Origin: Brevinematia bacterium
GTDB lineage: Bacteria > Spirochaetota > Brevinematia > DTOW01
Assembly: GCA_039630355.1 (NCBI GenBank)
Contig: JBCNVF010000019.1
Coordinates: 2,142-66,141, forward strand
Direction of reading: 5' to 3'
DNA: 64,000 nt
Positions 1-57,428 of the stretch are shown here, piece after piece (position 1 is the first letter of the stretch; each line of letters starts with the position of its first letter). The notes under the pieces were generated by a model. That model made no database searches and had not been told where the DNA came from. It worked only from the letters and a program-made list of their open reading frames with translations. The translations under genes were made by a program, and so were the position numbers.

Positions 1-2376
1 ACTCCTCTGTCTATTGGTAGAAAGAAGTCTCTAAGTGCTGTTGAAGATGCTTCTCTGAAAGATAAACTTATTGGATTTGTTACGCAAAGGTCAAAAGATG
101 TTGAGGATCCGGGAATAGATGATCTCTATAGGGTTGGGGTTGTTGCGACTATATTTAAGATATTTAGGCTTCCTGATGGAACTTTGAATGTAGTGGTTAG
201 GGCTGAGAAGAGATTTAGGATAAAGGATATTGTGGAAACTGAGCCTTTCATAAAGGCTAATGTTGAATATCTTGAAGTAGAGATTGTTAGAGATGAAGAA
301 GTTGAAGCTTATGTGAAAACTATAAGGGATATGACAACATCGTTGATCCATCTTATTCCTGATGCACCTCCTGATGCAGAATTTGTTCTTCAGTCGATAG
401 AGCAACCAGATCTGTTGGGATATTTTGTTGTTTCAGGTGTGAATGCAACGATTGAAGAGAAGCAAAGGATTCTTGAAGAGAACTCTCTCAAAGAGATTCT
501 TAAGCTTGTTGTGAGCTATCTGGGAAGGGATCTAGAGCTTGCTAAGGTTAGCAAGGAAATCCAGGAGAAGGTTAAGAACGATGTTGAGAAAACCCAGAAA
601 GAGTATTTCTTAAGACAGCAACTAAAAGCAATCCAGAAAGAACTAGGTGAATTGAGTGATCAGGAAAAGGATATTCAGGAACTCAAGCAAAGACTTGAGA
701 GTAAGAAGATGAGTGAAGAGGCCAGGAAGGTAGCTCTTGAGCAGATAGAGAGATTATCAAAGATACCAGTGATGTCTCCAGAGTATACTGTGACCAGAAA
801 CTATGTTGATCTCATTTTACAGTTACCTTGGGATGAATACACAGAAGATAATCTAGATATAGAATACGCAGAGAAGGTGCTTAACGAAGATCATTATGAC
901 TTGGAGAAAGTGAAAAAGAGGATTCTGGAATACCTCTCTGTTATGAAACTTAAGAAAGGATACGTAAAAGGCCCTATACTGTGTTTTTATGGTCCACCTG
1001 GAGTTGGTAAGACTTCTTTAGGTAGGTCAATAGCAAGAGCATTGGGTAGAAAGTTTGTGAGAATATCGTTAGGTGGTGTGAGAGATGAAGCTGAGATAAG
1101 GGGACACAGGAGAACATATGTTGGTGCTTTGCCAGGAAGAATAATACAGGGACTTAAGAAAGCAGGGTCATCAAATCCAGTTTTTATGCTAGATGAGGTA
1201 GATAAACTTGCATCAGATTTCAGAGGAGATCCAGCATCTGCGCTTCTTGAAGTGTTAGACCCCGAACAGAATAGCTCTTTCAGTGATCATTATCTGGAGA
1301 TACCTTACGACCTCTCTAGGGTTATGTTTATTACTACCGCTAACTCCCTAAACACTATCCCTTGGCCATTGCTTGATAGAATGGAGTTAATATCTATACC
1401 TGGTTACACAGAGTATGAGAAGAAGATGATCGCTGTAAACTACCTTATTCCTAAGCAAAAGAAGGAAAATGGTCTTGAGGAGTATAATGTTACTATAACA
1501 GATTCTTCGTTAAGCAAGATAATAAACGATTACACTAAAGAAGCAGGAGTGAGAGAGTTAGACAGAAGTATAGGTTCTATTATGAGATCTATTGCCACCT
1601 ATGTTGTTAGGAATGGAATAGAACCAGGAGGAGAGGATATAGTTGTTGACGAAAAGAAAGTTAGGGAATTTCTAGGTCCTGAGAAGTTTATACCCGAGGT
1701 AAAAGAAATGACGAGAATACCAGGGGTTGCTGTGGGACTTGCTTGGACCCCGGTTGGTGGAGAAATTCTCTTTATAGAAGCTACAGCTATGAAGGGAAGA
1801 GGTAACTTAATACTCACAGGTTCGCTTGGAAGCGTAATGAAAGAGTCTGCTTCGATAGCGTTTAGTTATGTGAAAGCCAATGCTGAAGCTTTTGGGATAC
1901 CTAATTATGTTTTCAAAGAATATGACCTACATGTTCATATACCCTCTGGAGCAATTCCAAAAGATGGCCCCTCTGCTGGTATAACGCTACTTGTTGCCAT
2001 AATATCACTTTTGACCCAAAGAAGAGTTAGAGACAACGTCTCTATGACTGGAGAACTTTCGCTTAGAGGGCTAGTATTACCCGTAGGTGGAATTAGAGAA
2101 AAAATACTTGCAGCAAAAAGGTATAACATTACTAAAGTGATAATTCCAGATAAAAACCTAAAAGATGTAGATGAAATACCTGAAGAACAGAAAAAAGGAA
2201 TAGAGATAATACCAGTTGGGAAGGTAAGCGAAGTTATCAGCTTGGTCCTTGAAGAAGAACCTGTTGAGGATATCCATAAAGTCTTTAAGAAGCTCTCAAA
2301 AGAAGAAAAAGAACAATTAGAGGGTGGTAAAGGAAGAGAAAAAGAGCAGGGTAAGATTAAAGTTATATCCTCTTAG
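1..2376 (+). CDS. lon: ATP-dependent protease Lon (La); 5' end lies upstream of window
   Basis: Frame 1 is open from nt 1 and continuous with ORF 184..2376 (Lon N-domain sequence before the TTG at 184). AAA+ Walker A GPPGVGKTS, Walker B MLDEVDK, and C-terminal protease domain with catalytic Ser in PKDGPSAGIT. Confidence 0.95.
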   Translation, partial: TPLSIGRKKSLSAVEDASLKDKLIGFVTQRSKDVEDPGIDDLYRVGVVATIFKIFRLPDGTLNVVVRAEKRFRIKDIVETEPFIKANVEYLEVEIVRDEEVEAYVKTIRDMTTSLIHLIPDAPPDAEFVLQSIEQPDLLGYFVVSGVNATIEEKQRILEENSLKEILKLVVSYLGRDLELAKVSKEIQEKVKNDVEKTQKEYFLRQQLKAIQKELGELSDQEKDIQELKQRLESKKMSEEARKVALEQIERLSKIPVMSPEYTVTRNYVDLILQLPWDEYTEDNLDIEYAEKVLNEDHYDLEKVKKRILEYLSVMKLKKGYVKGPILCFYGPPGVGKTSLGRSIARALGRKFVRISLGGVRDEAEIRGHRRTYVGALPGRIIQGLKKAGSSNPVFMLDEVDKLASDFRGDPASALLEVLDPEQNSSFSDHYLEIPYDLSRVMFITTANSLNTIPWPLLDRMELISIPGYTEYEKKMIAVNYLIPKQKKENGLEEYNVTITDSSLSKIINDYTKEAGVRELDRSIGSIMRSIATYVVRNGIEPGGEDIVVDEKKVREFLGPEKFIPEVKEMTRIPGVAVGLAWTPVGGEILFIEATAMKGRGNLILTGSLGSVMKESASIAFSYVKANAEAFGIPNYVFKEYDLHVHIPSGAIPKDGPSAGITLLVAIISLLTQRRVRDNVSMTGELSLRGLVLPVGGIREKILAAKRYNITKVIIPDKNLKDVDEIPEEQKKGIEIIPVGKVSEVISLVLEEEPVEDIHKVFKKLSKEEKEQLEGGKGREKEQGKIKVISS

Positions 2377-13310: not shown

Positions 13311-13877
13311 TTAGAGAATATAGATGAAGATCTTATCATCAATCACATTCAGTAGGCTAAAGCTGGAAAATCTCCATAGGTAGGATACTATTATAGTTCC
13401 GTAGGATAGTTCTTTAGCAAATTTTACCTCAAGTTTCCTGTTAGTCTCTTCTGTTAGGAAGCAGAAAACGATTGTAGCATCTTTAATGGGGTAGTTGAAG
13501 AAATTTCCCCAGATTACTTTAACTTTGTTTTCTAGTCCCAGTAGTTTTACTCTGATCTTTGTAATAAGGTATCTGATAGGATCTATCTCTATACCAACTG
13601 CTTTGCACCCATATTTTTTAGCAGCCTCTATTATAAACCTTCCGTCTCCACAACCAAGATCGTAAACTACATCTTTCTCCTTTGGTTCAAGGTAGTTGAG
13701 GGTTTTATGTATCACTTTCATAGGTGTAGGGTCCCAGGCTGCTCCTAACATCCAGGTCCAAAGCAAGGATATAGTGAGGAGTATGAGTATTACGGCAATT
13801 GGCCAAAGTCCGTAGAAGAAACTTAAGAGTGCTCCTATTAGAAAAACCATTGTCAAGATTAACCAAACCATACTCAA
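13311..13877 (-). CDS. Membrane-anchored class I SAM-dependent methyltransferase
   Basis: Two N-terminal hydrophobic helices, then SAM-binding motif I VYDLGCGDGRF and motif II region. Start overlaps upstream ORF by 4 nt. Confidence 0.7.
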   Translation of the reverse strand: MSMVWLILTMVFLIGALLSFFYGLWPIAVILILLTISLLWTWMLGAAWDPTPMKVIHKTLNYLEPKEKDVVYDLGCGDGRFIIEAAKKYGCKAVGIEIDPIRYLITKIRVKLLGLENKVKVIWGNFFNYPIKDATIVFCFLTEETNRKLEVKFAKELSYGTIIVSYLWRFSSFSLLNVIDDKIFIYIL

Positions 13878-14377
13878 AATAGAATGTCTCCTACTTTAAG
13901 TATGTCTAGAATCTTGTATAAGGTAGTTTCGTTTCCGGCTTCGTCAAGTTCTGTGACCTTTGAAACATAGAAAGAATAACCACCTACGTATTGGTTTTTT
14001 TCGTCTATCACGAGTAGATTCACTTTCCAAGCTATAAAGCCATACTTTCTTTTCTCCTCTGGCAAAAACTCTGAGGATTGGTATATTCTTAGGAATTTTA
14101 TCTGGGCGCTAGATGGAAACTGTTTATTTAGCTCACCGATGTAATACTCGTTTATTTCCATATTTCCAGAGAAGAGATTGACGAATACCTTCCCACCACA
14201 GACTTCTCTCAGAGAGTCTCTGTCTCTTAATTGCGCTGATCTGATAAATTTCAAAATCACGTCCTGAAGACTTCTTATCTCAATAAGATGGGAGATATAG
14301 GAGACTAGTATAATGCCAAGTATGATAGCCAGTATTAGTATTCCTAGAAGTATTCCAATTTTTCTTGCCTTGATCAT
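13874..14377 (-). CDS. Hypothetical membrane-anchored protein (N-terminal TM helix), co-transcribed with methyltransferase
   Basis: ORF with an N-terminal TM segment ILLGILILAIILGIILV; no recognisable catalytic motif. Confidence 0.5.
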   Translation of the reverse strand: MIKARKIGILLGILILAIILGIILVSYISHLIEIRSLQDVILKFIRSAQLRDRDSLREVCGGKVFVNLFSGNMEINEYYIGELNKQFPSSAQIKFLRIYQSSEFLPEEKRKYGFIAWKVNLLVIDEKNQYVGGYSFYVSKVTELDEAGNETTLYKILDILKVGDILF

Positions 14378-18700: not shown

Positions 18701-18807
18701 GGAGGGCTAGAATTTTGTCTACTTTCTAACGAAGTTGGGTTTTTGACCTCTTATGGAATTTGATTTTAAATGGGAAGATGGACTATATTTTTATATCTGA
18801 GGTTTTT

Positions 18808-21609
18808 ATGGGGCTATTGGAGAAAATCTTTGGTACGAAGCACGAGAGAGATATAAGGAAGATAAGGCCAATTGTTGAGAAAGTTGGAGAGCTTGAGAGG
18901 GAGTATGATAAGTTAAGCAATGTTGAGTTGATACAGTTAGCGTCAGCACTGAGGGATAAAGTTAGGAAGCAAGGTGAAGTTAAGGAGGAAGACTTTATAG
19001 AGGGTGCTACGCTTGTTAGGGAGGCTGCGAAGAGAACTCTGGGAATGAGGCATTTTGATGTGCAGATAATAGGTGCTACTGTATTGTTTCAAGGCAAGAT
19101 AGCGGAGATGAAAACAGGGGAGGGTAAAACTTTAGTAGCAACAATACCGCTTTTTGTGGAATCCCTGACTGGTAATAATGTTCAGTTGGTAACGGTTAAC
19201 GACTATCTTGCCAGAAGAGATGCTGAATGGATGGGGCCAATATACCTTTTTCTAGGTGCAAGTGTGGGGGTGATAAATCCTAACGATAGGAGTTATGTAG
19301 TTGAGTGGAACAATCCACAGGAAGCACAATACGCAATTGTAAATGATCTTAGAGTTTGGCCTAGGGGAGACTTTACGGATGATATACTACCAGAGGATAA
19401 GCTTAACAGGAAAGTTAGCGAGTATTTTAAGGTAAAGCTTGTTAGCGCTACTAAAAAGTCTGCTTACATTGCGGACATAACTTATGGAACAAACAATGAA
19501 TTTGGGTTTGACTATCTTAGGGACAACATGGTTTACTCAATTGAGGACAAGGTCCAGAGAGGACATTATTATGCAATAATTGACGAAGTTGACTCTATAC
19601 TTATAGATGAAGCTAGAACTCCTCTTATAATTTCGGGTCCTTCTATGGAGAATACTGAGATATATGTTCTTGCTGACAATGTAGCTAGGAAACTCAAGCC
19701 TGCGCAAGTTGATAGCGAAGGTAAACCTATTCCTAATACTGGTGACTTTGTAATAGACGAAAAAGACAAGAACGCCTACCTCACAGAGGAGGGAATGAGA
19801 AAGGTTGAGGAACTTACCGGGACAAAAGATTTGTTTAGTGCTCTCAGTTCTAAAAGTCTTATGCTTATACACTCTATCAATCAGGCGATAAGGGCTCACT
19901 ATCTCTTCAAAAGGGATGTTGATTACTCCATCGTTGGTGGGGAGGTTGTGATAATAGATGAATTTACGGGCAGGTATATGTTTGGTAGAAGGTGGAGTGA
20001 CGGATTACACCAAGCTATTGAAGCTAAAGAGAGGGTAGCAATAAAACAGGAGTTCAGAACCCTTGCAACCATAACCTTCCAGAACTATTTTAGGATGTAT
20101 AAGAAACTTGCCGGTATGACGGGAACTGCAGAGACCGAAGCAGAAGAGTTTTGGAAAATATACCATCTTGACGTTGTTGTAATTCCTACGCATAAGCCTG
20201 TGAGAAGAGTTGATGCTGACGATAAGGTATTTGCGACGGAAAAGGAGAAACTAGAGGCAGTTGTGAGAGAGATCAAAGAGCTCCATAAGAAAGGAGTTCC
20301 TGTGCTTGTGGGAACAATCTCTGTGGAGAAGTCGGAAATTCTTTCTAAAATGCTGTCTAAAGAAAAGATACCCCACAATGTCCTTAACGCTAAAAACCAC
20401 GAAAAGGAGGCTAAAATAATTGCTGAAGCTGGAAAGAAGTTCGCAGTAACTGTTGCTACAAACATGGCGGGTAGAGGAGTGGATATAAAACTTGGTGAGG
20501 GGGTTAGAGAACTTGGTGGGCTTCACATCATAGGCACGGAAAGACATGAAGCAAGAAGAATTGACAATCAGCTAAGAGGTAGAGCTGGCAGACAGGGAGA
20601 TCCTGGATTTACAAGGTTTTATATCTCCTTTGAGGACGAATTGCTGAGGTTGTTTGGATCTGATAGACTCAAGAGGTTAGCGAAGATCATGAAGTGGGAA
20701 TATGGTCAAGAGTTAGAACATAGATTGCTAACTTCGGCTATAGAGAATGCTCAGAAGAGAGTTGAGAGATATAACTTTGAAATAAGAAGATATCTTCTAG
20801 AGTATGATAATGTTCTAAATGAACAGAGAAATATAGTTTATTCTCTAAGGGATAAAATTCTGCGTAAAGAGGGAATTGATGAATTAGTGAAGAAGATGAT
20901 TTCGGATTATTTTTTTGACAAAAGCTCTGAAAAGTCTACATTTACGATAGATGACATATTATCTCTGATTAAGAATACTTTCCTTTTAGATGTGAGTGAA
21001 GAGTTTATTAGGGAGCAACTTAAAGCTTCTGCTAACGAAGAGGAGAGAAACGATAAAATTGCGGAACTTGTGTATCAAGGTATAAGGTGGCGAATGGGAA
21101 AGGGTGTTTCTGATGAAAGATTCTATGAAGGAATAGGGTTTATTCTTCTCAATATAATTGATATGAAGTGGGTAGACCATCTTTATAAAATTGATGAACT
21201 TAGGGAGGGTATAACTCTTAGGTCCTATGGTGAAAGAAATCCTTTGGTTGAGTTTAAGCTGGATGCTTATGAAATATTTCACAATACTATGAAGGAAATA
21301 AGAAGTGAGTTTTGTAGGTTAATTTCTAGGCTTAGGATGGCTGAAGAAGTTCAAGTTGCAAAGGTTGTTACTACTCCTTGGGATAAGATGTATCAGAAGC
21401 ATGACGAACTTGGGCAGTTTGAGGCTAAAAATCCTTTTGCTTTTGTTACCCAGCAGAGGGAAAGCGGAACAATAAGAGCGGTGAAGCGACCTGGTCCCAA
21501 TGATCCTTGCTGGTGTGGTAGTGGTAAAAAGTACAAAAAGTGTCATATGGACTCGGATAAATACTCTGACATTGAGTCATCGGGAATAACTTATATAAAC
21601 AGGAAGTAG
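18808..21609 (+). CDS. secA: Preprotein translocase ATPase SecA (start at MGLLEKIFG)
   Basis: DEAD-like motor domains, and C-terminal zinc finger CWCGSGKKYKKCH. Confidence 0.95.
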   Translation: MGLLEKIFGTKHERDIRKIRPIVEKVGELEREYDKLSNVELIQLASALRDKVRKQGEVKEEDFIEGATLVREAAKRTLGMRHFDVQIIGATVLFQGKIAEMKTGEGKTLVATIPLFVESLTGNNVQLVTVNDYLARRDAEWMGPIYLFLGASVGVINPNDRSYVVEWNNPQEAQYAIVNDLRVWPRGDFTDDILPEDKLNRKVSEYFKVKLVSATKKSAYIADITYGTNNEFGFDYLRDNMVYSIEDKVQRGHYYAIIDEVDSILIDEARTPLIISGPSMENTEIYVLADNVARKLKPAQVDSEGKPIPNTGDFVIDEKDKNAYLTEEGMRKVEELTGTKDLFSALSSKSLMLIHSINQAIRAHYLFKRDVDYSIVGGEVVIIDEFTGRYMFGRRWSDGLHQAIEAKERVAIKQEFRTLATITFQNYFRMYKKLAGMTGTAETEAEEFWKIYHLDVVVIPTHKPVRRVDADDKVFATEKEKLEAVVREIKELHKKGVPVLVGTISVEKSEILSKMLSKEKIPHNVLNAKNHEKEAKIIAEAGKKFAVTVATNMAGRGVDIKLGEGVRELGGLHIIGTERHEARRIDNQLRGRAGRQGDPGFTRFYISFEDELLRLFGSDRLKRLAKIMKWEYGQELEHRLLTSAIENAQKRVERYNFEIRRYLLEYDNVLNEQRNIVYSLRDKILRKEGIDELVKKMISDYFFDKSSEKSTFTIDDILSLIKNTFLLDVSEEFIREQLKASANEEERNDKIAELVYQGIRWRMGKGVSDERFYEGIGFILLNIIDMKWVDHLYKIDELREGITLRSYGERNPLVEFKLDAYEIFHNTMKEIRSEFCRLISRLRMAEEVQVAKVVTTPWDKMYQKHDELGQFEAKNPFAFVTQQRESGTIRAVKRPGPNDPCWCGSGKKYKKCHMDSDKYSDIESSGITYINRK

Positions 21610-22305: not shown

Positions 22306-23373
22306 ATGATAGAAAGTGTAGTTTTTGATAAGATGATGCCGGTTCAGGCGAAGGAAGATAGTAGCTTTATAGTATACACAGTTACAACGCTTTCTAGAAA
22401 TATTGATGGGTATGATATACCTGTAAGATTGGGGGAGAAACAGAAGAAGGAGATAAATTCAAAGATAATGGAATTTCTGAAAACCCTGCCGGAGTATGAT
22501 AATCTAGTTGATGCTACATCTATCACTGGTAGGGATAATGAGCTTCTAGGGCTGATAGATAGGGAAATAATAGACTATGATTTAATTAGGTTTCTGAATG
22601 TTAAGAACAAAATGTTGAGGTTGTTTTTTGATCAGAAGGTAAATTACGTTATTGCTACTAATGCCTATGATCATTTTTCAGTTAGAAGCACTTTTGTGAG
22701 TAACGGTATAGATAGATCTTTTGATATAGTGGAGAGGTTTAGTATACTGTTTGATGAGTATTTTGTGCCTGCTTTTAGCAAGATGTATGGGTATATAACT
22801 AGTGATATTTCTACAATAGGTCATGGTGTGAAGGTAAAGTTTCTTATGAATGTTTGGGGACTTAGAAACTCAGGTTCTCTGGAGAGTGTTCTTGAAGTTC
22901 TTTCATCAAACGGGGTATTTTACAACCACAATCCTTTGTATGATAGGACGAACTTTATGGAGTTTACGTATGTATTCCAACCAGATGAATCTATGGTTGC
23001 CAATAAGGTTATCTTCAAATCTCTGCTTGAGAAGGTTCGGGAGATAGAACTGGATGAGAGAAAAAAGCTTGGAATGAGGTATACTTCAAGAAGTCTATAC
23101 AGGGAGTATAATGATCTTAAGAATACTATAAAGAGTGCAAACTTTATTCATTACAAGGCGTTTTTGGGGCTTATGTCCAAGTTGAGTATGATCTCGTTGT
23201 TTAGTGATAATGATGAGGAAAGCTTTGCATACCTAAGTGAGATGATCAACTTTCTTATACTTCTCCTTAGAGATGCTAGTATAATGTTGTATTCTAATAT
23301 TCCTCCTACTGAGTCTTTTATTGGTAAGGAAAGGGCAAGTATTCTTAGAAAGTTTTTCAACCTATCAGTGTAG
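22306..23373 (+). CDS. McsB-like ATP:guanido phosphotransferase family protein (protein arginine kinase homolog), divergent
   Basis: VYTVTTLSRNIDGYDIP resembles McsB VLSSRIRLARN-x5-FP. ATNAYDHFSVRS resembles NEEDHIRIQ. PAFSKMYGYITSDISTIGHGVKVKFLMNVWGL resembles YAF-x4-GYLTSCPTNVGTGLRAS-x-MMHLPAL, but the catalytic Cys position is Asp here. Confidence 0.45.
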   Translation: MIESVVFDKMMPVQAKEDSSFIVYTVTTLSRNIDGYDIPVRLGEKQKKEINSKIMEFLKTLPEYDNLVDATSITGRDNELLGLIDREIIDYDLIRFLNVKNKMLRLFFDQKVNYVIATNAYDHFSVRSTFVSNGIDRSFDIVERFSILFDEYFVPAFSKMYGYITSDISTIGHGVKVKFLMNVWGLRNSGSLESVLEVLSSNGVFYNHNPLYDRTNFMEFTYVFQPDESMVANKVIFKSLLEKVREIELDERKKLGMRYTSRSLYREYNDLKNTIKSANFIHYKAFLGLMSKLSMISLFSDNDEESFAYLSEMINFLILLLRDASIMLYSNIPPTESFIGKERASILRKFFNLSV

Positions 23374-24906
23374 TTAAGTAGGTAGAACTACGTAGAAGAT
23401 ACATCCTTTACCTACACCTTTCGTTTTGGGGATTATTTTAGCATTCAGCATATCAGCAAACTTTTTTGAGAGAGATAGCCCAATACCAGTTCCTGAGAAC
23501 CTTTTATTCCTCACGTTTTCAAGTTGGGTAAACGGTGTGAAGATTTTTTTTAGATCTGATTCCTTCATACCTATTCCGGTATCTTCAATCTTGAAAATTA
23601 CATTGTTAGGTTTTGTGTATATAGATACTTTTACCCAGCCTTTTTCGGTAAACTTTACAGCGTTAGATATCAGGTTTACTAGGATGGATTTTATCATCAT
23701 GTAGTCTGTATTTATAGTCATATCGCCAGTGTTGTTTTCTATGTAAAAGTCTATGTTTTTGTTTTTAGAAAGGACCTTTCCATATCTTTCCAATTCTTCG
23801 GAGATCTCCTTAACTTGTATTCTGGTGAAGATAGGTTTCATTGCTCCTGCTTCTATTTTTGATAGATCAAGTATGTTGTTTATCATCCCAAGTAGCGATG
23901 TTCCTGCAAACATTATGTAATCAAGGTATTTATCCTGCTCACTTTTTGGAAAGTCTCCCATTTTTAGAAGTTCTACGAAGCCCAATATGGCGTTAAGAGG
24001 TGTTCTTAGTTCATGCGAAACGTTTGCAACAAACTCCGATTTCAGTCTTGATAATTCTTCAGCTCTCTTTTTTGCCCTTATGAGGTTTATATTCATCTCG
24101 TAGAGTTTTATTCTGTGTGTCATTACAAAGGAGAGAATCTTTAGGATTTCTTTGTCAATCTCGGTTACGCTTTCTTTTGTTTCTTTAAACTCCACGAGTA
24201 GTATTCCTTTTGTTTCGTTAAACTCTCTTAGAGGAACTATTCCGACAAGCCTGTGCTTGTTGTTTTGGGAGGTTGCTATATTAAGGAATATCTCTTTTTC
24301 GCCTGACAGAATCTTTTTTATGTTTATCAGTATTTCCTTGTTCTTTAGAATTTCTTTTTCTATGCCGATTGCCGATACTACTTCCATTCTTTTGTTAGAC
24401 AAGATTGCAATTATTGCTTTGTCAATATCGGTGAAAGTTGTTAAGGAGATCAATGAGTGAGATAGGGCATTTTTTATTGAGATCTCATATATCAGTGGCT
24501 CTATGGAGAATACTAAAGCTTTGAGATACTTGAATCTTGTGTAAATAGTTTCAAATTTTTCATGGTTTTTGAGAAAATTGTCTATAATGGCGTAGGATAA
24601 TATTATCTCTTCCTTACTTGTAAAGGAGTTTATGTCAAAGTAGAGGAAATAGTTGTTTAATTTCATTACACATTCTACATCTTTGTAGTTTATTTGTTCT
24701 TGGGTTTCTCTGATGAGGTTGAGGATGTGTTTTGTTGATTTGTTGCCGAAACCATATATTATTTCTCTCTGGTTACCAAAGAAGAAGTTTTTGGTTCCAA
24801 ACTTTATAGAAAAGATGACACTTATCTTTTGGAAGATTTCTGACAATTTTGAGCCAACTGATAGTACTTCTAGAAGCTCATTCATAAAGCTAGTATTCCA
24901 TGCCAT
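23374..24906 (-). CDS. Cytoplasmic sensor histidine kinase (GAF-like N-terminal region, HisKA + HATPase_c)
   Basis: H-box FVANVSHELRTPLNAILGF; N, G1 and G2 boxes (NLISNAVKFT, DTGIGM, GTGIGLSL). No TM segments. Confidence 0.88.
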   Translation of the reverse strand: MAWNTSFMNELLEVLSVGSKLSEIFQKISVIFSIKFGTKNFFFGNQREIIYGFGNKSTKHILNLIRETQEQINYKDVECVMKLNNYFLYFDINSFTSKEEIILSYAIIDNFLKNHEKFETIYTRFKYLKALVFSIEPLIYEISIKNALSHSLISLTTFTDIDKAIIAILSNKRMEVVSAIGIEKEILKNKEILINIKKILSGEKEIFLNIATSQNNKHRLVGIVPLREFNETKGILLVEFKETKESVTEIDKEILKILSFVMTHRIKLYEMNINLIRAKKRAEELSRLKSEFVANVSHELRTPLNAILGFVELLKMGDFPKSEQDKYLDYIMFAGTSLLGMINNILDLSKIEAGAMKPIFTRIQVKEISEELERYGKVLSKNKNIDFYIENNTGDMTINTDYMMIKSILVNLISNAVKFTEKGWVKVSIYTKPNNVIFKIEDTGIGMKESDLKKIFTPFTQLENVRNKRFSGTGIGLSLSKKFADMLNAKIIPKTKGVGKGCIFYVVLPT

Positions 24907-24914
24907 GTTTGTAT

Positions 24915-25652
24915 CTATTCGTCAAAATCTTTAAAAATGTCAACATTAGTTTCTTCTTTTTCTCTTTTGATGTCTATTAGGTCTCTAAATTCCTCAAAGC
25001 TTTCCTTGGTGATGTAGACTTCTCTTATTCCGAGGGATTTAAGCTTTTCAGTAATCTTACTATCTATCGTCGTACCTTCCTTGTATATTATTGTCCTATT
25101 TTTAACAACAGGTTCTCCCAAGATCATACCTTCTATCAAGTCATCTACTGATATTCTTATTCCTGTTTCTAATTCTCTTTTGTTGACTCTTTCTGGAGAC
25201 TCATTTCGTAGAAGAGCTACAGTTTCTTCATCTTTTTGGAGGCTGGATTTTTCTTGAAGGTGGTGGTTCTGAGTTGTTCCTCTTATTTCTTCTTGTATTA
25301 TTACCTTTTTCAGGGTTTCCAGTAGTTTAGTAGGGGAAACCGGTTTGACTAAGTAAGCTTTGATGTTATACGAAGCCATTTCCTTCACATCATACACTGA
25401 TGAACTAGCACTTACCACTATTATTGGTATTCCCTGATATCTTGGGTCTTTTGATATCTCGCTTGCAAACCTAAATCCACTCATACCTGGCATGTAGAGG
25501 TCAAGCAGTATTATGTCTGGAGTAACATTCTTTAGTATTTCTAGAGCTTCCATGCCATTTCTTGCTGTTATTACCTCAAAACCTTTCATGTTAAGGGTGT
25601 CTGCAAATAATCTCAAGTTCAAAGGATTGTCTTCAACTATTAACACCTTCAT
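24915..25652 (-). CDS. Response regulator: REC domain plus uncharacterised C-terminal domain (DUF3391-like)
   Basis: MKVLIVEDNPLNLRLF...DIILLDLYMPGMSGF receiver with phospho-acceptor Asp. C-terminal about 110 aa (GIRISVDDLIEGMILGEPVV...LGIREVYI) resembles the N-terminal domain found in HD-GYP proteins. Confidence 0.8.
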   Translation of the reverse strand: MKVLIVEDNPLNLRLFADTLNMKGFEVITARNGMEALEILKNVTPDIILLDLYMPGMSGFRFASEISKDPRYQGIPIIVVSASSSVYDVKEMASYNIKAYLVKPVSPTKLLETLKKVIIQEEIRGTTQNHHLQEKSSLQKDEETVALLRNESPERVNKRELETGIRISVDDLIEGMILGEPVVKNRTIIYKEGTTIDSKITEKLKSLGIREVYITKESFEEFRDLIDIKREKEETNVDIFKDFDE

Positions 25653-35591: not shown

Positions 35592-36896
35592 TCAAGTTTT
35601 TCCTTGCTGTCTGCTTATCTGGATTTTCAGTTCCATTAGAAGCTTTTTCTTGTAGAAAGTTACATCCTTGAGTAGTTTCTCAAGATCATTTACTACTATT
35701 TTGCCGTCCTGGGATATGGTGATATTTTTGTCGTTATCAAGGATGTTCTTTATATATTTCTTGCCTTCTTCCATAGTATATCCAAGAAACTTTATTAGAT
35801 CCTCAATGGAGAAGTTCAACTTAAATGATTCCATGGGTTTTATCGGAATTCTATTTTTCTCTATTTGTATCATCAAGGCGTCATAGATCCTTGCATTAGG
35901 TTCTTTGAGTGCTATATTTGCAAGTTGGCGGTATATTGCCCATATTCTGTCGCTTAGTAATTCTATTATTCTGGTAGCTATTTCAGGTCTTGTATGAACC
36001 ATAGCTTCAAAGTTTCCTCTCTTTACAAAGAGTAGTTCTACATTTCCAACGGCTGTAGCTGTTGCGCTTCTGGGTCTATTTTCAAGAATTGACATTTCTC
36101 CAAAGATATCTCCTTCCTTAAGAACTGCTAGTAATACTTCGTTTCCATTTACAAATTTTGTTATTCTTACATTGCCTTTTAGTATAACATAGGCCTTTTC
36201 CCCGTATTCGTGCTCGCAGAAAATAACTTGGCCGTCGTGGTATCTTTCAACCGATCTTGAAGGATCAACTTCGGGTTCAGCCATTGCTATGATAGGGTCA
36301 ATAGAAGCGAGCTTCATCTTAGCTACTGATACATAACCGCCGTCTGGGCAGTATTCTATGTATTTTTTGTAGGCATAAGCTGCTTGCTCCATCATCTTCT
36401 TGGAGTAATAAAATTCAGCTATGTTGAAAAGGTAGTAGGGATCTTCATCAACCTGAGACTTAAAAGTGAGTTTTGTCAGAGTTGAGTCATATTCTCTAAG
36501 CTTTTGACTGAATGATCTAAGGATTTTTATAGCGATAGGAGTGCTCTTCTGTATCAGTTCTCCAAACTGAGATCTGTGGATTGACAATAAAGAGGTATCC
36601 TCCAGAACTAAAACCGTTTCCATGTTGCTTCTCTTACTCATGCAGGATACTACACCGAAAAAATCACCTTTATAGAGAGTTGTTCCTTCTTTTGTTCCCC
36701 TTATTATAGGGTCAATTGTTTCAAACACTTGCACTTTACCATCTTGGATTATATAAAACTCCTCTGGAATCTTGTCACCTTCTATCATCACGTAACTTCC
36801 TTGCCGGTATTTAACTACCTTGAAAGTCATTCCACCGTCCATATTATCTTCCTTACCGAAAACTATTATAAATAATATACGCTTCACTAACAACAA
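35592..36896 (-). CDS. Crp/Fnr-family regulator with two tandem cyclic-nucleotide-binding domains and C-terminal HTH (start may be an internal Met near 36842)
   Basis: CNB domain 1 ends GDFFGVVSCMSKRSNMETV. CNB domain 2 has GDIFGEMSILENRPRSATATAVGNVELLFV (canonical FGE...RSA motif). C-terminal FSIEDLIKFLGYTMEEGKKYIKNIL is HTH_Crp-like. Confidence 0.7.
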   Translation of the reverse strand: MLLVKRILFIIVFGKEDNMDGGMTFKVVKYRQGSYVMIEGDKIPEEFYIIQDGKVQVFETIDPIIRGTKEGTTLYKGDFFGVVSCMSKRSNMETVLVLEDTSLLSIHRSQFGELIQKSTPIAIKILRSFSQKLREYDSTLTKLTFKSQVDEDPYYLFNIAEFYYSKKMMEQAAYAYKKYIEYCPDGGYVSVAKMKLASIDPIIAMAEPEVDPSRSVERYHDGQVIFCEHEYGEKAYVILKGNVRITKFVNGNEVLLAVLKEGDIFGEMSILENRPRSATATAVGNVELLFVKRGNFEAMVHTRPEIATRIIELLSDRIWAIYRQLANIALKEPNARIYDALMIQIEKNRIPIKPMESFKLNFSIEDLIKFLGYTMEEGKKYIKNILDNDKNITISQDGKIVVNDLEKLLKDVTFYKKKLLMELKIQISRQQGKT

Positions 36897-36964: not shown

Positions 36965-38242
36965 GTGGGTTTTATGAAGGTGCTAATTGTTGTTTTCCTA
37001 ATGCTGTTTTTGTTTTCTCATGAGGGAGGGGCACAAAATGTATCTTTGATAACTTACGGTGTAGAAGATGGCGATGTTTTTGTGAAGTGGAAGTCTGCTG
37101 AAAAGGGTATAAATTTTTCAGTGTATCGTAGTGCTGTTATGATCTCAAATGTTGCTTCATTTTCAAACAACTTAAGTTCTGTATACAAATTGGGGACTTT
37201 TTCACAAGCTGAGTTGAGGAGAGAGAAAGAATATTTCTACCTTATAGATCCAAAGCCTAATGTTGGCACAAATTATTATTTCATTTTTGGTAACAAGAAT
37301 GGTGAAGATATTATTGAGTTTATACCAGAGCAAAATTATTCCTCTGGATTTATAGTATATATTCCGCTGCCGAAGGTTTCGGTTGAGCTTGTAAGGGGTG
37401 TGAACAATGCTATAATAAGGTGGGAGAAGGTGGAGGGTGCCGAAGGGTATCTGGTTTATAAGTTAAGAGATAGTTTTAGTGGGAACCTTTCTAAAGTTCA
37501 ACCTTTGGTTCAACTTACATCCAATGAAACTATATTTTTTGATGTAATTCCTTCTGATACTAACTTTTTTTATGTTGTTGTTCCTTTTACTAAGCACTAT
37601 ACTAACTACTACTTTTCTAGGAAATACAATGGTATATTTATGGAGATGTCAAAAAGGGACTTTCTAGAAGGTCAGACTTACGGTCAAAAGTTTGTGGAGG
37701 TAAAATCGCACTTGCAGAATCTTAGAGAAATAGCTCTTACTAATCATGTAACTAATTACGTGACTAATTTTGCAACTAATTATGTAACTGTTTATACAAC
37801 CAATGAGGTTGTGCTTTTTCAGACCAATACAGTTACACTGACTAACTTAGTCTTCTATACTAATATGGAATCCAGAGTCGTTGACAATATTGGGAATCAG
37901 AAGACTGTTCAAGAGATAAAGCCTCTCTATACTGCTCCTTTGTCTCAGGAGTATGTCCAACCTTATGATTTGGAATTGCAACAACTACAGGTTAAACTGA
38001 AATATATAGTTTTGAAGTTTTTCAATAAGAAGGATTATTCTACTGCCAGGAGTATGCTTAGAGAATTACTGAGTGAAGTGAGAGAAGATTCTGAGTTGAA
38101 GGGCAGGATCATGATATACTTAGCAAGGGCTGAATATATTCTGGGTAATAGGGAGGAGGCCATAGCTACTCTTTTCAGGGCTGTGAAGATACTACCAGAG
38201 GAGGCAGGATTTTGGTTGGATAGGTTTTTAGTGAATAGGTGA
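36965..38242 (+). CDS. Secreted hypothetical protein with FN3-like domains, tandem TNYV repeats and C-terminal TPR-like region
   Basis: Signal peptide MGFMKVLIVVFLMLFLFSHEGGAQ. Repeated VFVKWKSAEKGINFSVYRS and IIRWEKVEGAEGYLVYK modules. NHVTNYVTNFATNYVTVYTTN from a 12-bp DNA tandem repeat at about 37740-37800. C-terminal TPR-like helices. Confidence 0.5.
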   Translation: MGFMKVLIVVFLMLFLFSHEGGAQNVSLITYGVEDGDVFVKWKSAEKGINFSVYRSAVMISNVASFSNNLSSVYKLGTFSQAELRREKEYFYLIDPKPNVGTNYYFIFGNKNGEDIIEFIPEQNYSSGFIVYIPLPKVSVELVRGVNNAIIRWEKVEGAEGYLVYKLRDSFSGNLSKVQPLVQLTSNETIFFDVIPSDTNFFYVVVPFTKHYTNYYFSRKYNGIFMEMSKRDFLEGQTYGQKFVEVKSHLQNLREIALTNHVTNYVTNFATNYVTVYTTNEVVLFQTNTVTLTNLVFYTNMESRVVDNIGNQKTVQEIKPLYTAPLSQEYVQPYDLELQQLQVKLKYIVLKFFNKKDYSTARSMLRELLSEVREDSELKGRIMIYLARAEYILGNREEAIATLFRAVKILPEEAGFWLDRFLVNR

Positions 38243-38244
38243 TA

Positions 38245-39018
38245 TTACTGCCTTCTTCTTACACTTACATATTTATCGGTGAAAGGAATTTCTATTCTAG
38301 CTAGGACATAGTTGTTGTTAGGTCCTGAGATTCTAAAAAGAGCGGGATCAATTCCTACTCCTTTGAGCAACATCACGATAAGAGCTATTCCTATGCCAGC
38401 TCCCTCAAGTTCATCTCCTTGTTCAAGGTAGAATTGTGATAAGTCATCATATCCCATAGCTTTCTTAAGCTTTTCTCTTACCCTCTTATCCTCAAACTCG
38501 GTTATAGCCACATTGTTTACAACCTCTATCCTAACTCCATCTTGGGAGTGGTAGAATGCTACACTTATATATAGGTCTTTGTTTGCTAGTTTGGGTAGAT
38601 ATTTCGGTAAATTCATCTCTGAGAGCTCTTCTTTGAATTTTATCATACCAGCTAAGAAGCTTTTCTCATCGGAAGGGTCAACATTATGTTCTTCAAATAC
38701 TATTCTTTTTATATTGGCTTTACTTGCGTTCAGAACGAGTTCTTTGACGCAAGTGTATATAACGTCCGACAAATCTTCCCTTCCGTAGTGCTCAAATATT
38801 CTTGTTATTACCAAATTGAGGCGCCTCTCTATTTCAGAAGAAATTCCATAAAACTTTATAAAAAAATATTTACCCTCTTTTACAAAACTATCCACAACTT
38901 TAAGAAACTCTTCTTCGCTTTTGACGTTTATGTCAACTTTATCGTACATAGTTATATCCCCCTCTGAGTAGTAAGTCAGATAACCAATACCTATGAAGTT
39001 TTCCATTAATGCCTCCAA
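38245..39018 (-). CDS. GHKL/HATPase_c-like ATPase domain protein without HisKA (anti-sigma-factor/kinase-like), hypothetical
   Basis: N-box-like TCVKELVLNASKAN and G2-box-like GDELEGAGIGIALIVMLLKG; 257 aa with a roughly 90-aa N-terminal extension. Confidence 0.4.
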   Translation of the reverse strand: MEALMENFIGIGYLTYYSEGDITMYDKVDINVKSEEEFLKVVDSFVKEGKYFFIKFYGISSEIERRLNLVITRIFEHYGREDLSDVIYTCVKELVLNASKANIKRIVFEEHNVDPSDEKSFLAGMIKFKEELSEMNLPKYLPKLANKDLYISVAFYHSQDGVRIEVVNNVAITEFEDKRVREKLKKAMGYDDLSQFYLEQGDELEGAGIGIALIVMLLKGVGIDPALFRISGPNNNYVLARIEIPFTDKYVSVRRRQ

Positions 39019-56891: not shown

Positions 56892-56954
56892 TGGTAGGGG
56901 CTTGAGTAGTTGTTCGTTTTGAATTTTAACTTTCTAAACTTTGATACTTTAGCT

Positions 56955-57428
56955 ATGAGTTTTCAGCGTGGAGTGATTGCTATCTTGATCTTAGTTTTGA
57001 CTTCCTGCGGTATAGATGTTCCAGAGCTTGTTGTTACTCTCAGGCCTCCGATGGGACTAAAGGTATGGTTTACCACTAATGATACTATCAAACTTGAGTT
57101 TTGGGGATTTAACGATGAAGATTATTTTTCTGGTTATGTGGTTTTTGCATCGTCCTCTTATAGCGAAATAGCAGACACAACAAAGTCTTTAGGTGAAAAA
57201 CCTAAGATTCCCAATATGGAGACAAGAGCACTACCAACTTTCAGTGTCCTACCTACTTCTGAGCCGACAAATTATGTCTTTGAGCTTCCACTTACTGTTC
57301 AAAGTGAAAGTGGAAATATTGTCTTCATAAAGGGTTTTCAGTATTACATAGCAGTTGCTGGGTATTCTGCTTCTAAGAAGATCTACAGTCCTTTGAGTAA
57401 TATAACAAATGTGGTGCTAACTAATTAG
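56955..57428 (+). CDS. Hypothetical lipoprotein with FN3-like fold (ORF from 56910; likely start MSFQRG)
   Basis: Lipobox LVLTSCG; beta-rich 140-aa domain. Confidence 0.45.
   Translation: MSFQRGVIAILILVLTSCGIDVPELVVTLRPPMGLKVWFTTNDTIKLEFWGFNDEDYFSGYVVFASSSYSEIADTTKSLGEKPKIPNMETRALPTFSVLPTSEPTNYVFELPLTVQSESGNIVFIKGFQYYIAVAGYSASKKIYSPLSNITNVVLTN

What the first reader, a model, noticed from the sequence alone, without database searches (positions are those of the whole stretch)
22306..23373. McsB-like guanidino kinase homolog with apparent active-site substitutions, next to a cytoplasmic GAF-histidine kinase and an REC-DUF3391-like regulator
Three collinear segments match McsB/phosphagen-kinase motifs (SRN box, NEEDH box, CPTNLGTG box), but the nucleophile/ATP-positioning Cys aligns to Asp (TSDISTIGHG) and NEEDH reads NAYDH. 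Either this is a non-canonical arginine kinase or a pseudoenzyme. Firmicute McsB works with McsA/ClpC/CtsR; none are here. Instead the neighbours are a soluble GAF sensor kinase and a response regulator whose output domain is the DUF3391-like module otherwise fused to HD-GYP phosphodiesterases. This hints at an uncharacterised phospho-signalling module.
Basis: inference. Interest (0 to 1): 0.5.

Follow-up and report, generated by a model that had tools for sequence, protein, structure and literature searches.

The report
Catalytically dead, orphan McsB-like protein
This gene encodes a full-length relative of the bacterial protein-arginine kinase McsB that has replaced every residue needed for ATP-dependent phosphotransfer yet is kept under purifying selection in a small group of uncultured Brevinematia spirochaetes, so it is most likely a non-catalytic "pseudokinase"; it has no conserved link to the two-component genes beside it.

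Summary

The proposed trio with the histidine kinase and response regulator is not supported. The kinase gene is convergent. In the family loci from other genomes the neighbours differ, and none encodes McsA, ClpC or a two-component pair. GAF was not detected and DUF3391 is sub-threshold.

The family is an isolated clade of three 50%-identity clusters, found only in Brevinematia MAGs. Other McsB-like lineages have degenerated independently, and some still sit in mcsA-mcsB-clpC operons. Its function is unknown. My best inference is a dimeric binding or regulatory protein. Interest is moderate to low.

The parts
22306..23373 (+). Complete gene for the 355-aa McsB-like protein (NCBI: MAG Brevinematia bacterium ABDH28_01665, 'hypothetical protein')
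   Evidence: ORF list. A 100% identical database protein exists. The N-terminus is conserved from Met1 in all 12 homologues.
22348..23070 (+). Phosphagen-kinase-like (phosphotransferase) domain, aa 15-255, catalytically degenerate
22381..22401 (+). First strand, VTTLSRN (aa 26-32). Canonical R-x-R-x-x-R-N has become V-x-T-x-x-R-N. Two phosphate-binding Arg are lost; the structural R31 and N32 are kept.
   Evidence: Role of the Arg cluster: PMC12467219.
22660..22686 (+). NEEDH-box equivalent, NAYDHFSVR (aa 119-127): E120A, E121Y, R125S. N119 and H123 are invariant. R127 is new and nearly invariant.
   Evidence: NEEDH is part of the McsB catalytic site: PMC11046695.
22789..22833 (+). Catalytic-loop equivalent, GYITSDISTIGHGVK (aa 162-176): C167D, P168I, N170T, T173H (H invariant), R176K
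   Evidence: C167 is the catalytic Cys of McsB: PMC11046695.
22912..22962 (+). Lid-loop equivalent, GVFYNHNPLYDRTNFME (aa 203-219). R207N. The Asp/Glu at 213 aligns at or next to canonical E212. This is one of the most conserved family segments.
23071..23370 (+). C-terminal helical domain (aa 256-355), homologous to the McsB dimerisation domain
23263..23295 (+). LLRDASIMLYS (aa 320-330), the most conserved segment of the family. It occupies the place of the canonical 'QPAHL' helix of the dimerisation domain. The AF2 monomer model has low confidence here.
   Evidence: Entropy scan, alignments, pLDDT below 50 for aa 321-334.
23320..23337 (+). IGKERA (aa 339-344), remnant of the phospho-arginine receptor site: R337I, D338G, R341 kept as invariant R343. 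S285 is kept as S291 (Ser or Thr in 11 of 12).
   Evidence: Receptor-site residues from PMC8370763 and bioRxiv 10.1101/2025.11.26.690658.

Best explanation
The gene encodes a lineage-specific pseudokinase: a descendant of the McsB protein-arginine kinase.

What is shown:
- It keeps the whole two-domain McsB architecture, a phosphagen-kinase-like domain followed by a C-terminal helical dimerisation domain.
- It has replaced all the residues that in McsB and arginine kinases bind the ATP phosphates and polarise the target guanidinium.
- It is under purifying selection.
- It is transcriptionally and syntenically independent of mcsA, clpC, ctsR and of the adjacent two-component genes.

What is inferred:
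- It cannot carry out canonical ATP-to-arginine phosphotransfer.
- It acts by binding, most probably as a dimeric scaffold, regulator or 'reader'.
- The conserved surfaces are the remodelled pocket (D167, H173, K176, R127, Y212, D/E213, E219), the C-terminal LLRDxSIMLYS helix, and the half-retained phospho-ligand pocket (S291, R343). These would engage a protein partner or an Arg or phospho-ligand.
For: Homology and fold:
- Pfam PF00217 above its cut-off.
- Family profile against canonical McsB: hhalign 99.9%, E 1.3e-31, over 339 columns.
- AF2 model pTM 0.74.

Loss of the catalytic apparatus:
- 0 of 8 canonical residues (R29, R31, E120, E121, R125, C167, R176, R207) are kept in all 12 members. 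By contrast, 63 of the 131 nearest non-family relatives keep 8 of 8.
- C167 and NEEDH form the McsB catalytic site (PMC11046695).
- The Arg cluster guides ADP/ATP in arginine kinase (PMC12467219).
- Positions 26, 28, 120, 121 and 125 lie at the 73rd-95th percentile of variability within the family. The scaffold residues R31, N32, N119, H123, G172 and G174 are invariant.

Still functional:
- Intact ORFs in all 9 genes examined. dN/dS is about 0.10 for the least saturated pair.
- 64 invariant columns across members only 43-71% identical.

Orphan status:
- The neighbourhoods of the family loci differ, and none holds McsA or ClpC.
Against: - There is no biochemical evidence.
- A few polar or basic residues in the old pocket are conserved (R31, R127, K176, H123, H173, D167, D/E213) and could in principle support nucleotide or substrate binding in a new geometry.
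- The AF2 model is of low confidence in the catalytic loop itself (aa 162-169, pLDDT below 50). Coordinates could not be inspected, so no pocket geometry was tested.
- No partner is known, because the gene context is uninformative.
- Whether the same genomes also carry a canonical McsB, McsA or ClpC could not be checked.
Confidence: 0.7

Rival explanations
1. It is a non-canonical but active guanidino or protein kinase. It would use a re-wired site (K176, R127 and R31 for the phosphates; D167 and D/E213 for the guanidinium; H173 or H123 as a helper).
For: - R31 and H123 are invariant. R127 and K176 are kept in 11 of 12 members. D/E167 is kept in 11 of 12, and D/E213 in 12 of 12.
- R127 lies two residues after the lost R125 on the same strand, so it would face the same side (inference).
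Against: - Four of the five phosphate-binding arginines are replaced by uncharged residues, and those positions vary freely.
- The most divergent member, P0012, lacks D167, K176, R127 and W184. No candidate replacement set is therefore universal.
- The McsA activator and the ClpC reader of pArg are absent from all the loci.
Confidence: 0.1
2. The kinase fold has been repurposed for different chemistry or for small-molecule sensing, for example a hydrolase or phosphatase, or a metal or metabolite binder using the His/Asp residues H123, H173, D122 and D167.
For: - H173 is a new, invariant residue replacing the canonical Thr (114 of 131 relatives have Thr).
- The lid-loop segment NPLYD(R/K)TNFME and the segment GHGVKxKFLxNxWGLR are among the most conserved in the family.
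Against: - No similarity to any hydrolase family was found.
- D167 and D122 are not invariant.
- No metabolic or transport genes are consistently adjacent.
Confidence: 0.12
3. This is the first reader's idea: the protein works with the adjacent soluble histidine kinase and REC-tail response regulator as a three-gene phospho-signalling module.
For: The three genes are physically adjacent in this window. The response-regulator tail has a faint DUF3391 match (E 1.3).
Against: - The histidine kinase and response regulator are on the opposite strand, convergent with the gene.
- No two-component genes appear in the called-gene tables of the eight family loci that carry them. Three loci from the genome scan were not annotated.
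- Orthologues 64-71% identical already have entirely different neighbours.
Confidence: 0.03
4. It is a decaying pseudogene or an annotation artefact.
For: The catalytic residues are lost, and NCBI calls it a 'hypothetical protein'.
Against: - Full-length intact ORFs in all the genomes examined, with a conserved start and length (350-367 aa) and 64 invariant columns.
- dN/dS about 0.1.
- A confident McsB-like fold.
Confidence: 0.01

Closest known systems
McsB protein-arginine kinase of Bacillota (B. subtilis, G. stearothermophilus, S. aureus; PDB 6tv6, 6fh1-3, 8gqd, 8wtb/c)
   Same: - Same length class (about 350 aa).
- Same two-domain architecture, with no phosphagen-kinase N-terminal domain.
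- Whole-length profile homology.
- Best structural match.
- The scaffold residues R34, N35, N119, D122, H123, G172, G174 and the E..R linker are conserved, as is R341 of the pArg receptor site.
   Different: - Only 13-20% sequence identity.
- All 8 catalytic or ATP-binding residues are replaced, including catalytic C167 (to D) and the NEEDH glutamates (to A and Y).
- Receptor-site residues R337 and D338 are lost.
- It scores far below the NCBIfam McsB cut-offs, and Pfam McsB_C does not hit.
- No mcsA, clpC or ctsR lies nearby.
Phosphagen kinases (arginine, creatine and taurocyamine kinases)
   Different: - It lacks their N-terminal helical domain: the alignment starts at about residue 113 of arginine kinase.
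- It has the McsB-type C-terminal domain instead.
- The Arg124/126/229/280 cluster and the catalytic Cys are not conserved.
Other catalytically degenerate McsB-like proteins that remain in mcsA-mcsB-clpC operons (for example P0032 in L012 and P0020 in L013)
   Same: - They too have lost most or all canonical catalytic residues (0/8 and 1/8).
- They share K at position 176 and W at 184 with the family. P0032 also has R at 127, and P0020 also has Y at 121.
- By BLAST they are slightly nearer to the window protein than a canonical McsB is: P0032 at 26% identity, E 1e-17.
   Different: - They keep Pfam McsB_C and the operon partners, a Zn-finger/UVR McsA-like protein upstream and ClpC downstream.
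- Each is closer to canonical McsB than to the window family, so the degenerations appear to be independent.
Brevinema / Brevinemataceae degenerate McsB-like family (P0054, P0178-P0181)
   Same: Same bacterial class (Brevinematia). P0054 has 0 of 8 canonical residues; the other four aligned members also lack the canonical NEEDH and Cys motifs. Homologous to the window family (hhalign probability 97%, E 7e-11).
   Different: - Only about 21% identical.
- Conserved synteny of mcsA-like gene, then mcsB-like, then PBP2, then RodA.
- Found in Brevinema spp., not in the MAG lineages that hold the window family.

Membership tests
McsB protein-arginine kinase | Phosphagen-kinase-type catalytic domain (Pfam PF00217) without the phosphagen-kinase N-terminal domain | tested here: met
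   PF00217 scores 31.8 bits against a cut-off of 22.4. No N-terminal-domain family hit. Alignments start at residue 14-20 of McsB.
McsB protein-arginine kinase | C-terminal helical dimerisation domain (Pfam McsB_C, PF27454) | tested here: inconclusive
   [not shown]
McsB protein-arginine kinase | Catalytic Cys (C167) and the NEEDH motif glutamates | tested here: not met
   C167 to D, E120 to A, E121 to Y. In the family as a whole these positions read D/E/S, variable, and Y/F/H/S. Roles from PMC11046695.
McsB protein-arginine kinase | Arginine cluster that binds the ATP phosphates (R29, R31, R125, R176, R207; equivalent to Arg124/126/229/280/309 of arginine kinase) | tested here: not met
   These positions read V, T, S, K and N in the window protein. 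None is Arg in any of the 12 members. Role of Arg124/126/229/280 from PMC12467219. Arg309 and its McsB equivalent rest on my own knowledge.
McsB protein-arginine kinase | Phospho-arginine receptor site in the dimerisation domain (S285, R337, D338, R341) | tested here: not met
   R337 to I and D338 to G. S285 (S291) and R341 (R343) are kept. Site defined in PMC8370763.
McsB protein-arginine kinase | Score above the NCBIfam equivalog cut-offs (NF053707, NF002191/2/4) | tested here: not met
   30-48 bits against cut-offs of 381-679.
McsB protein-arginine kinase | Genomic association with mcsA, clpC or ctsR | tested here: not met
   None was found in the 64-kb window. tblastn with McsA-like and ClpC queries found none in the 12 family loci. 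The rest of each genome was not searchable. CtsR was sought only through the Pfam scans of ORFs of 150 aa or more.
McsB protein-arginine kinase | ATP-dependent phosphorylation of protein arginine | not testable with these tools
   Needs biochemistry.
Phosphagen kinases (arginine / creatine kinase) | N-terminal helical domain (ATP-gua_PtransN) plus the catalytic domain with conserved Cys, Glu and Arg residues | tested here: not met
   No N-terminal-domain hit. The catalytic residues are replaced.
   The genes are convergent. No two-component genes appear in the called-gene tables of the eight family loci that carry them. Three loci from the genome scan were not annotated.

The most novel reading that the evidence does not exclude
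The family is a non-catalytic 'reader' derived from an arginine kinase.
- It has discarded the ATP site.
- It keeps an acidic/aromatic clamp where the substrate guanidinium used to sit: D/E167, D/E213 and an aromatic residue at 121.
- It keeps half of the phospho-arginine pocket of the dimerisation domain (S291, R343; R341 is invariant even across all the degenerate lineages).
- It could therefore bind arginine-containing or phospho-modified client proteins without modifying them.

Together with the many independently degenerate McsB-like proteins, some still in mcsA-clpC operons, this would point to a widespread kinase-independent function of the McsB scaffold in protein quality control outside Bacillota.
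Probability: 0.15. Interest if true: 0.6.

Novelty: new variant of a known kind. Interest (0 to 1): 0.35.

Why it matters
McsB is the only well-studied protein-arginine kinase, and phospho-arginine is the Gram-positive degradation tag.

- A conserved family that keeps the McsB fold but none of its catalytic residues shows that the scaffold has a life beyond phosphotransfer. So does the observation that roughly half of its nearest metagenomic relatives are partly or wholly degenerate, some of them still beside McsA and ClpC.
- I found no paper describing McsB pseudokinases.
- There is a practical consequence. IMG already names members of this family 'protein-arginine kinase', which is probably a functional over-annotation.
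- For this particular gene the significance is limited. The organisms are uncultured, the context gives no partner, and loss of catalytic residues in a paralogue is a common evolutionary outcome.

Tried and rejected
- **Conserved neighbourhood.** I fetched 12 family loci (L001-L011, L014). I compared the unannotated neighbours with each other and with the window. Only closely related genomes share neighbours, so there is no recurrent partner.
- **McsA, ClpC or CtsR nearby.** Pfam scans covered the window ORFs of 150 aa or more, apart from four that lie inside longer annotated genes. tblastn used three McsA-like proteins and a ClpC. Nothing was found except a weak AAA match to an HslU-like gene.
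- **GAF in the histidine kinase.** Pfam at E<=10 on the N-terminal 270 aa gave nothing. A single-sequence AlphaFold model had pLDDT 36 and was unusable.
- **DUF3391 in the response-regulator tail.** Only E 1.3, 10 bits.
- **Single-sequence phmmer against the PDB.** Not significant (E 0.15). Only the family profile made the relationship significant.
- **Canonical McsB in the same lineage.** The last homologue search, seeded with the Brevinemataceae protein P0054, found only Brevinema proteins. Whole genomes cannot be searched with these tools.
- **dN/dS.** Synonymous sites are saturated in most pairs, and only one or two pairs are informative.
- **Promoter and terminator scan.** Nothing usable in the 101-bp upstream gap.
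- **Suskiewicz et al. 2019 (PMC6522372).** Not held in the library. The roles of E121, E212 and Arg309 rest on my own knowledge of phosphagen kinases plus the papers that were readable.
- **AFDB Foldseek library.** Unavailable.

Full report

Yes. The window has an ORF at 22306-23373 on the + strand, 355 aa, ATG start, TAG stop. It is 100% identical to an NCBI protein from a metagenome-assembled 'Brevinematia bacterium' (ABDH28_01665, 'hypothetical protein'). Brevinematia is a class of Spirochaetota.

- Pfam's ATP:guanido phosphotransferase catalytic-domain model (PF00217) scores 31.8 bits against a gathering threshold of 22.4 (E 1.2e-7).
- The NCBIfam equivalog models for protein-arginine kinase McsB are the best NCBIfam hits. 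They reach only 30-48 bits against cut-offs of 381-679.
- The single sequence is too diverged to hit solved structures significantly (E 0.15).
- A profile of the 12 family members hits solved McsB chains at E 1.5e-8 to 4.8e-7 and phosphagen kinases down to 2e-11.
- A global profile-profile alignment against 63 canonical McsB-like proteins gives probability 99.9%, E 1.3e-31, over 339 columns. That is the entire length, including the C-terminal domain.

**2. Fold**

An AlphaFold2 model built from the 12-sequence alignment has mean pLDDT 69 and pTM 0.74.

- Its best Foldseek matches in the PDB are all full-length McsB structures (6tv6, 6fh1, 6fh2, 6fh3, 8gqd), with E down to 7.5e-13 and TM 0.59-0.70 over about 350-370 columns.
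- The protein therefore belongs to the McsB branch: no phosphagen-kinase N-terminal domain, and a helical C-terminal domain.

**3. Active-site residues**

By chance the window numbering coincides with B. subtilis McsB numbering at the key motifs. HMMER, MAFFT and hhalign alignments agree.

| Canonical McsB residue | Window protein | Status |
|---|---|---|
| R29 | V26 | lost |
| R31 | T28 | lost |
| R34, N35 | R31, N32 | kept |
| N119 | N119 | kept |
| E120 | A120 | lost |
| E121 | Y121 | lost |
| D122, H123 | D122, H123 | kept |
| R125 | S125 | lost (a new Arg appears at 127) |
| C167 | D167 | lost |
| P168 | I168 | lost |
| N170 | T170 | lost |
| T173 | H173 | replaced; H is invariant |
| R176 | K176 | lost |
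| R207 | N207 | lost |

- The acidic residue at 213 (Asp in nine members, Glu in three) falls at or next to the second catalytic Glu (E212), depending on the aligner.
- C167 and the NEEDH motif constitute the McsB catalytic site, and C167A abolishes autophosphorylation-dependent assembly (PMC11046695).
- The equivalent Cys157 is called catalytically essential in S. aureus (PMC12467219).
- The Arg124/126/229/280 cluster of arginine kinases guides ADP/ATP into the site (PMC12467219).
- I scored eight positions (R29, R31, E120, E121, R125, C167, R176, R207). All 12 family members retain 0 of 8. Of the 131 nearest non-family relatives, 63 retain 8 of 8.
- Within the family, the former ATP and NEEDH positions 26, 28, 120, 121 and 125 are among the most variable columns (73rd-95th percentile). 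The scaffold residues are invariant.
- That pattern is what relaxed constraint on a defunct site looks like. It is not what a re-engineered catalytic site looks like.
- In the C-terminal domain, the phospho-arginine receptor site is S285, R337, D338 and R341 (PMC8370763; bioRxiv 10.1101/2025.11.26.690658). It is half retained: S291 and R343 are kept, R337 is replaced by Ile and D338 by Gly.

**4. It is not a dead gene**

- The 12 proteins are 43-71% identical to the window protein. They are 350-367 aa long and share 64 invariant columns, including family-specific motifs: LLGLIDRE, GYITSDxSTIGHGVK, NxWGLRxS, NPLYD(R/K)TNFME, HYK, LLRDxSIMLYS and GKERA.
- All nine genes I could read as DNA are intact.
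- Synonymous sites are mostly saturated. The least saturated pair gives dN 0.13, dS 1.28 and omega about 0.10.

**5. How isolated is the family?**

- A full HMMER scan of 1.84 billion cluster representatives found only three clusters above E 1e-30 (511-578 bits). The next hit scores 86 bits.
- Word-indexed searches found 12 members, all from Brevinematia or Brevinematales MAGs or from unnamed metagenome assemblies.
- A scan of 185,579 species-representative genomes found four loci, all from Brevinematia, Brevinematales or 'Spirochaetes bacterium' MAGs.

**6. Context**

In the window the gene follows secA and ruvA on the same strand, with a 101-bp gap. It abuts, tail to tail, a histidine kinase gene on the opposite strand. 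That gene is followed by a response regulator and then, divergently, glycogen phosphorylase.

In the family loci from other genomes the neighbours are unrelated to these and mostly to each other:
- PEGA and DUF4139 proteins
- ribosomal S6-SSB-S18 and an RND pump
- a TPR protein and SecDF
- UvrA and UvrC
- EPSP synthase
- a flagellar rod protein and DUF1015
- a Mur ligase and MutL

Only closely related genomes share neighbours. tblastn with three McsA-like proteins and a ClpC found nothing in the window or in any family locus. The Pfam scans of the window ORFs of 150 aa or more (four that lie inside longer annotated genes were left out) show ordinary housekeeping genes and no ClpC, McsA or CtsR. 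The 'trio' is therefore a coincidence of this one genome.

The labels given to the neighbours are also shaky:
- The kinase's N-terminal 270 residues match no Pfam domain at E<=10, so there is no GAF hit.
- A single-sequence model of that region was unusable, at pLDDT 36.
- The regulator's tail matches DUF3391 only at E 1.3.

**7. Relatives that illuminate it**

Among the 131 nearest non-family representatives, 22 keep at most one of the eight catalytic residues.

- Two of these are P0032 (0/8) and P0020 (1/8). Both still sit in classical operons: a Zn-finger/UVR McsA-like gene, then the McsB-like gene, then ClpC.
- Each degenerate protein is more similar to a canonical McsB than to the window family or to the others, so catalytic decay seems to have happened repeatedly.
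- Within the same class, Brevinema and Brevinemataceae have their own degenerate family: P0054 (0/8) and four relatives whose aligned NEEDH and Cys motifs are likewise non-canonical. Its synteny is conserved: an mcsA-like gene, the mcsB-like gene, PBP2, then RodA.
- That family is only about 21% identical to the window family, though clearly homologous.
- Across canonical McsB, these degenerate lineages and the window family, a small set of residues is invariant. It comprises R34, N35, N119, H123, three glycines, the E..R of the linker helix, and R341 of the receptor site.

**8. Interpretation**

Shown:
- The protein is a McsB homologue along its whole length.
- The canonical catalytic and nucleotide-binding residues are gone across the family.
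- The gene is under purifying selection.
- There is no conserved genomic partner.

Inferred:
- It does not catalyse ATP-dependent arginine phosphorylation and works by binding.
- The most conserved surfaces are the remodelled pocket and lid loop, plus the LLRDxSIMLYS helix in the dimerisation-domain equivalent. That helix is also poorly modelled in the monomer (pLDDT below 50), as expected if it is an interface.
- A speculative but mechanistically coherent reading follows from three observations. The acidic residues at 167 and 213, with an aromatic residue at 121, still form a guanidinium-friendly clamp. S291 and R343 keep half of the phospho-ligand pocket. Together these would give a 'reader' rather than a 'writer'. 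I put this at about 15%.

Alternatives:
- A re-wired active kinase (about 10%) is disfavoured because no replacement residue set is universal. P0012 lacks D167, K176 and R127.
- Repurposing to other chemistry or ligand sensing (about 12%) cannot be excluded.

**9. Comparison with what is known, and novelty**

- In fold and ancestry it resembles McsB. It fails the functional membership tests for McsB: catalytic residues, the NCBIfam cut-offs, the receptor site and the operon.
- A full-text search found no paper describing McsB-type pseudokinases. The recent review of bacterial pseudokinases cites McsB only in its reference list.
- I class it as a new variant of a known kind. Loss of catalysis in an enzyme paralogue is common. 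The organisms are uncultured and the context offers no handle on function, so interest is moderate to low (0.35).
- The broader pattern of repeatedly degenerate McsB-like proteins, some still partnered with McsA and ClpC, is the more interesting lead.
- IMG annotates members of this family as 'protein-arginine kinase', which the residue analysis does not support.

Noticed in passing
L012 7693-11580; L013 7377-11581: McsB-like proteins with 0/8 (P0032) and 1/8 (P0020) canonical catalytic residues still sit in intact operons: a Zn-finger/UVR McsA-like gene, then the McsB-like gene, then ClpC. This suggests a kinase-independent role of the McsB scaffold in some ClpC systems.
   Followed up: partly
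L015 7401-12210; L016 5416-10170: Brevinema / Brevinemataceae carry a separate degenerate McsB-like family (P0054, P0178-P0181). Its synteny is conserved: an mcsA-like gene (191-192 aa, four CxxC motifs plus a UVR-like tail), then the mcsB-like gene, then PBP2 and RodA. The link to the cell-elongation genes is unexplained.
   Followed up: partly
window 23374-24906 (-) and 24915-25652 (-): The histidine kinase has HisKA and HATPase_c but a 270-aa N-terminal region with no Pfam match and no obvious membrane segment. The response regulator has a REC domain plus a 130-aa tail whose only hint is DUF3391 at E 1.3. Both sensor and output domains are effectively uncharacterised.
   Followed up: partly
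cluster of P0010 (P0162-P0174, IMG): IMG names members of this catalytically degenerate family 'protein-arginine kinase', while NCBI calls them 'hypothetical protein'. The IMG name is probably a functional over-annotation.
   Followed up: partly
P0115 / P0177 (Chlamydiales MAGs): A Chlamydiales McsB-like protein also has 0 of 8 canonical catalytic residues. Degenerate McsB-like proteins are therefore spread over several phyla.
   Followed up: no
[not shown]
   Followed up: no
window 13874-14377 (-), 36965-38242 (+), 38245-39018 (-), 56910-57428 (+): Four ORFs of 167-425 aa have no Pfam family at E<=1e-5.
   Followed up: no
window 35592-36896 (-): A 434-aa protein with two cyclic-nucleotide-binding domains and an unassigned N-terminal half.
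   Followed up: no
window 18760-21609 (+): The SecA ORF as listed starts at a TTG. The usual SecA N-terminus (MGLLEKIFG) begins at codon 17, and the Pfam SecA_DEAD match starts at residue 20. The listed start is probably over-extended.
   Followed up: no
window 184-2376 (+): The Lon protease ORF matches the LON substrate-binding domain only from profile position 83. Its N-terminus may be shortened, or its start mis-placed relative to the real gene.
   Followed up: no
L014 2173-2592: A low-molecular-weight phosphatase gene (LMWPc, the family that includes the arginine phosphatase YwlE) lies about 8 kb upstream of a family member on a 1.5-Mb contig. It was not seen in the other family loci, so this is probably coincidence.
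   Followed up: no
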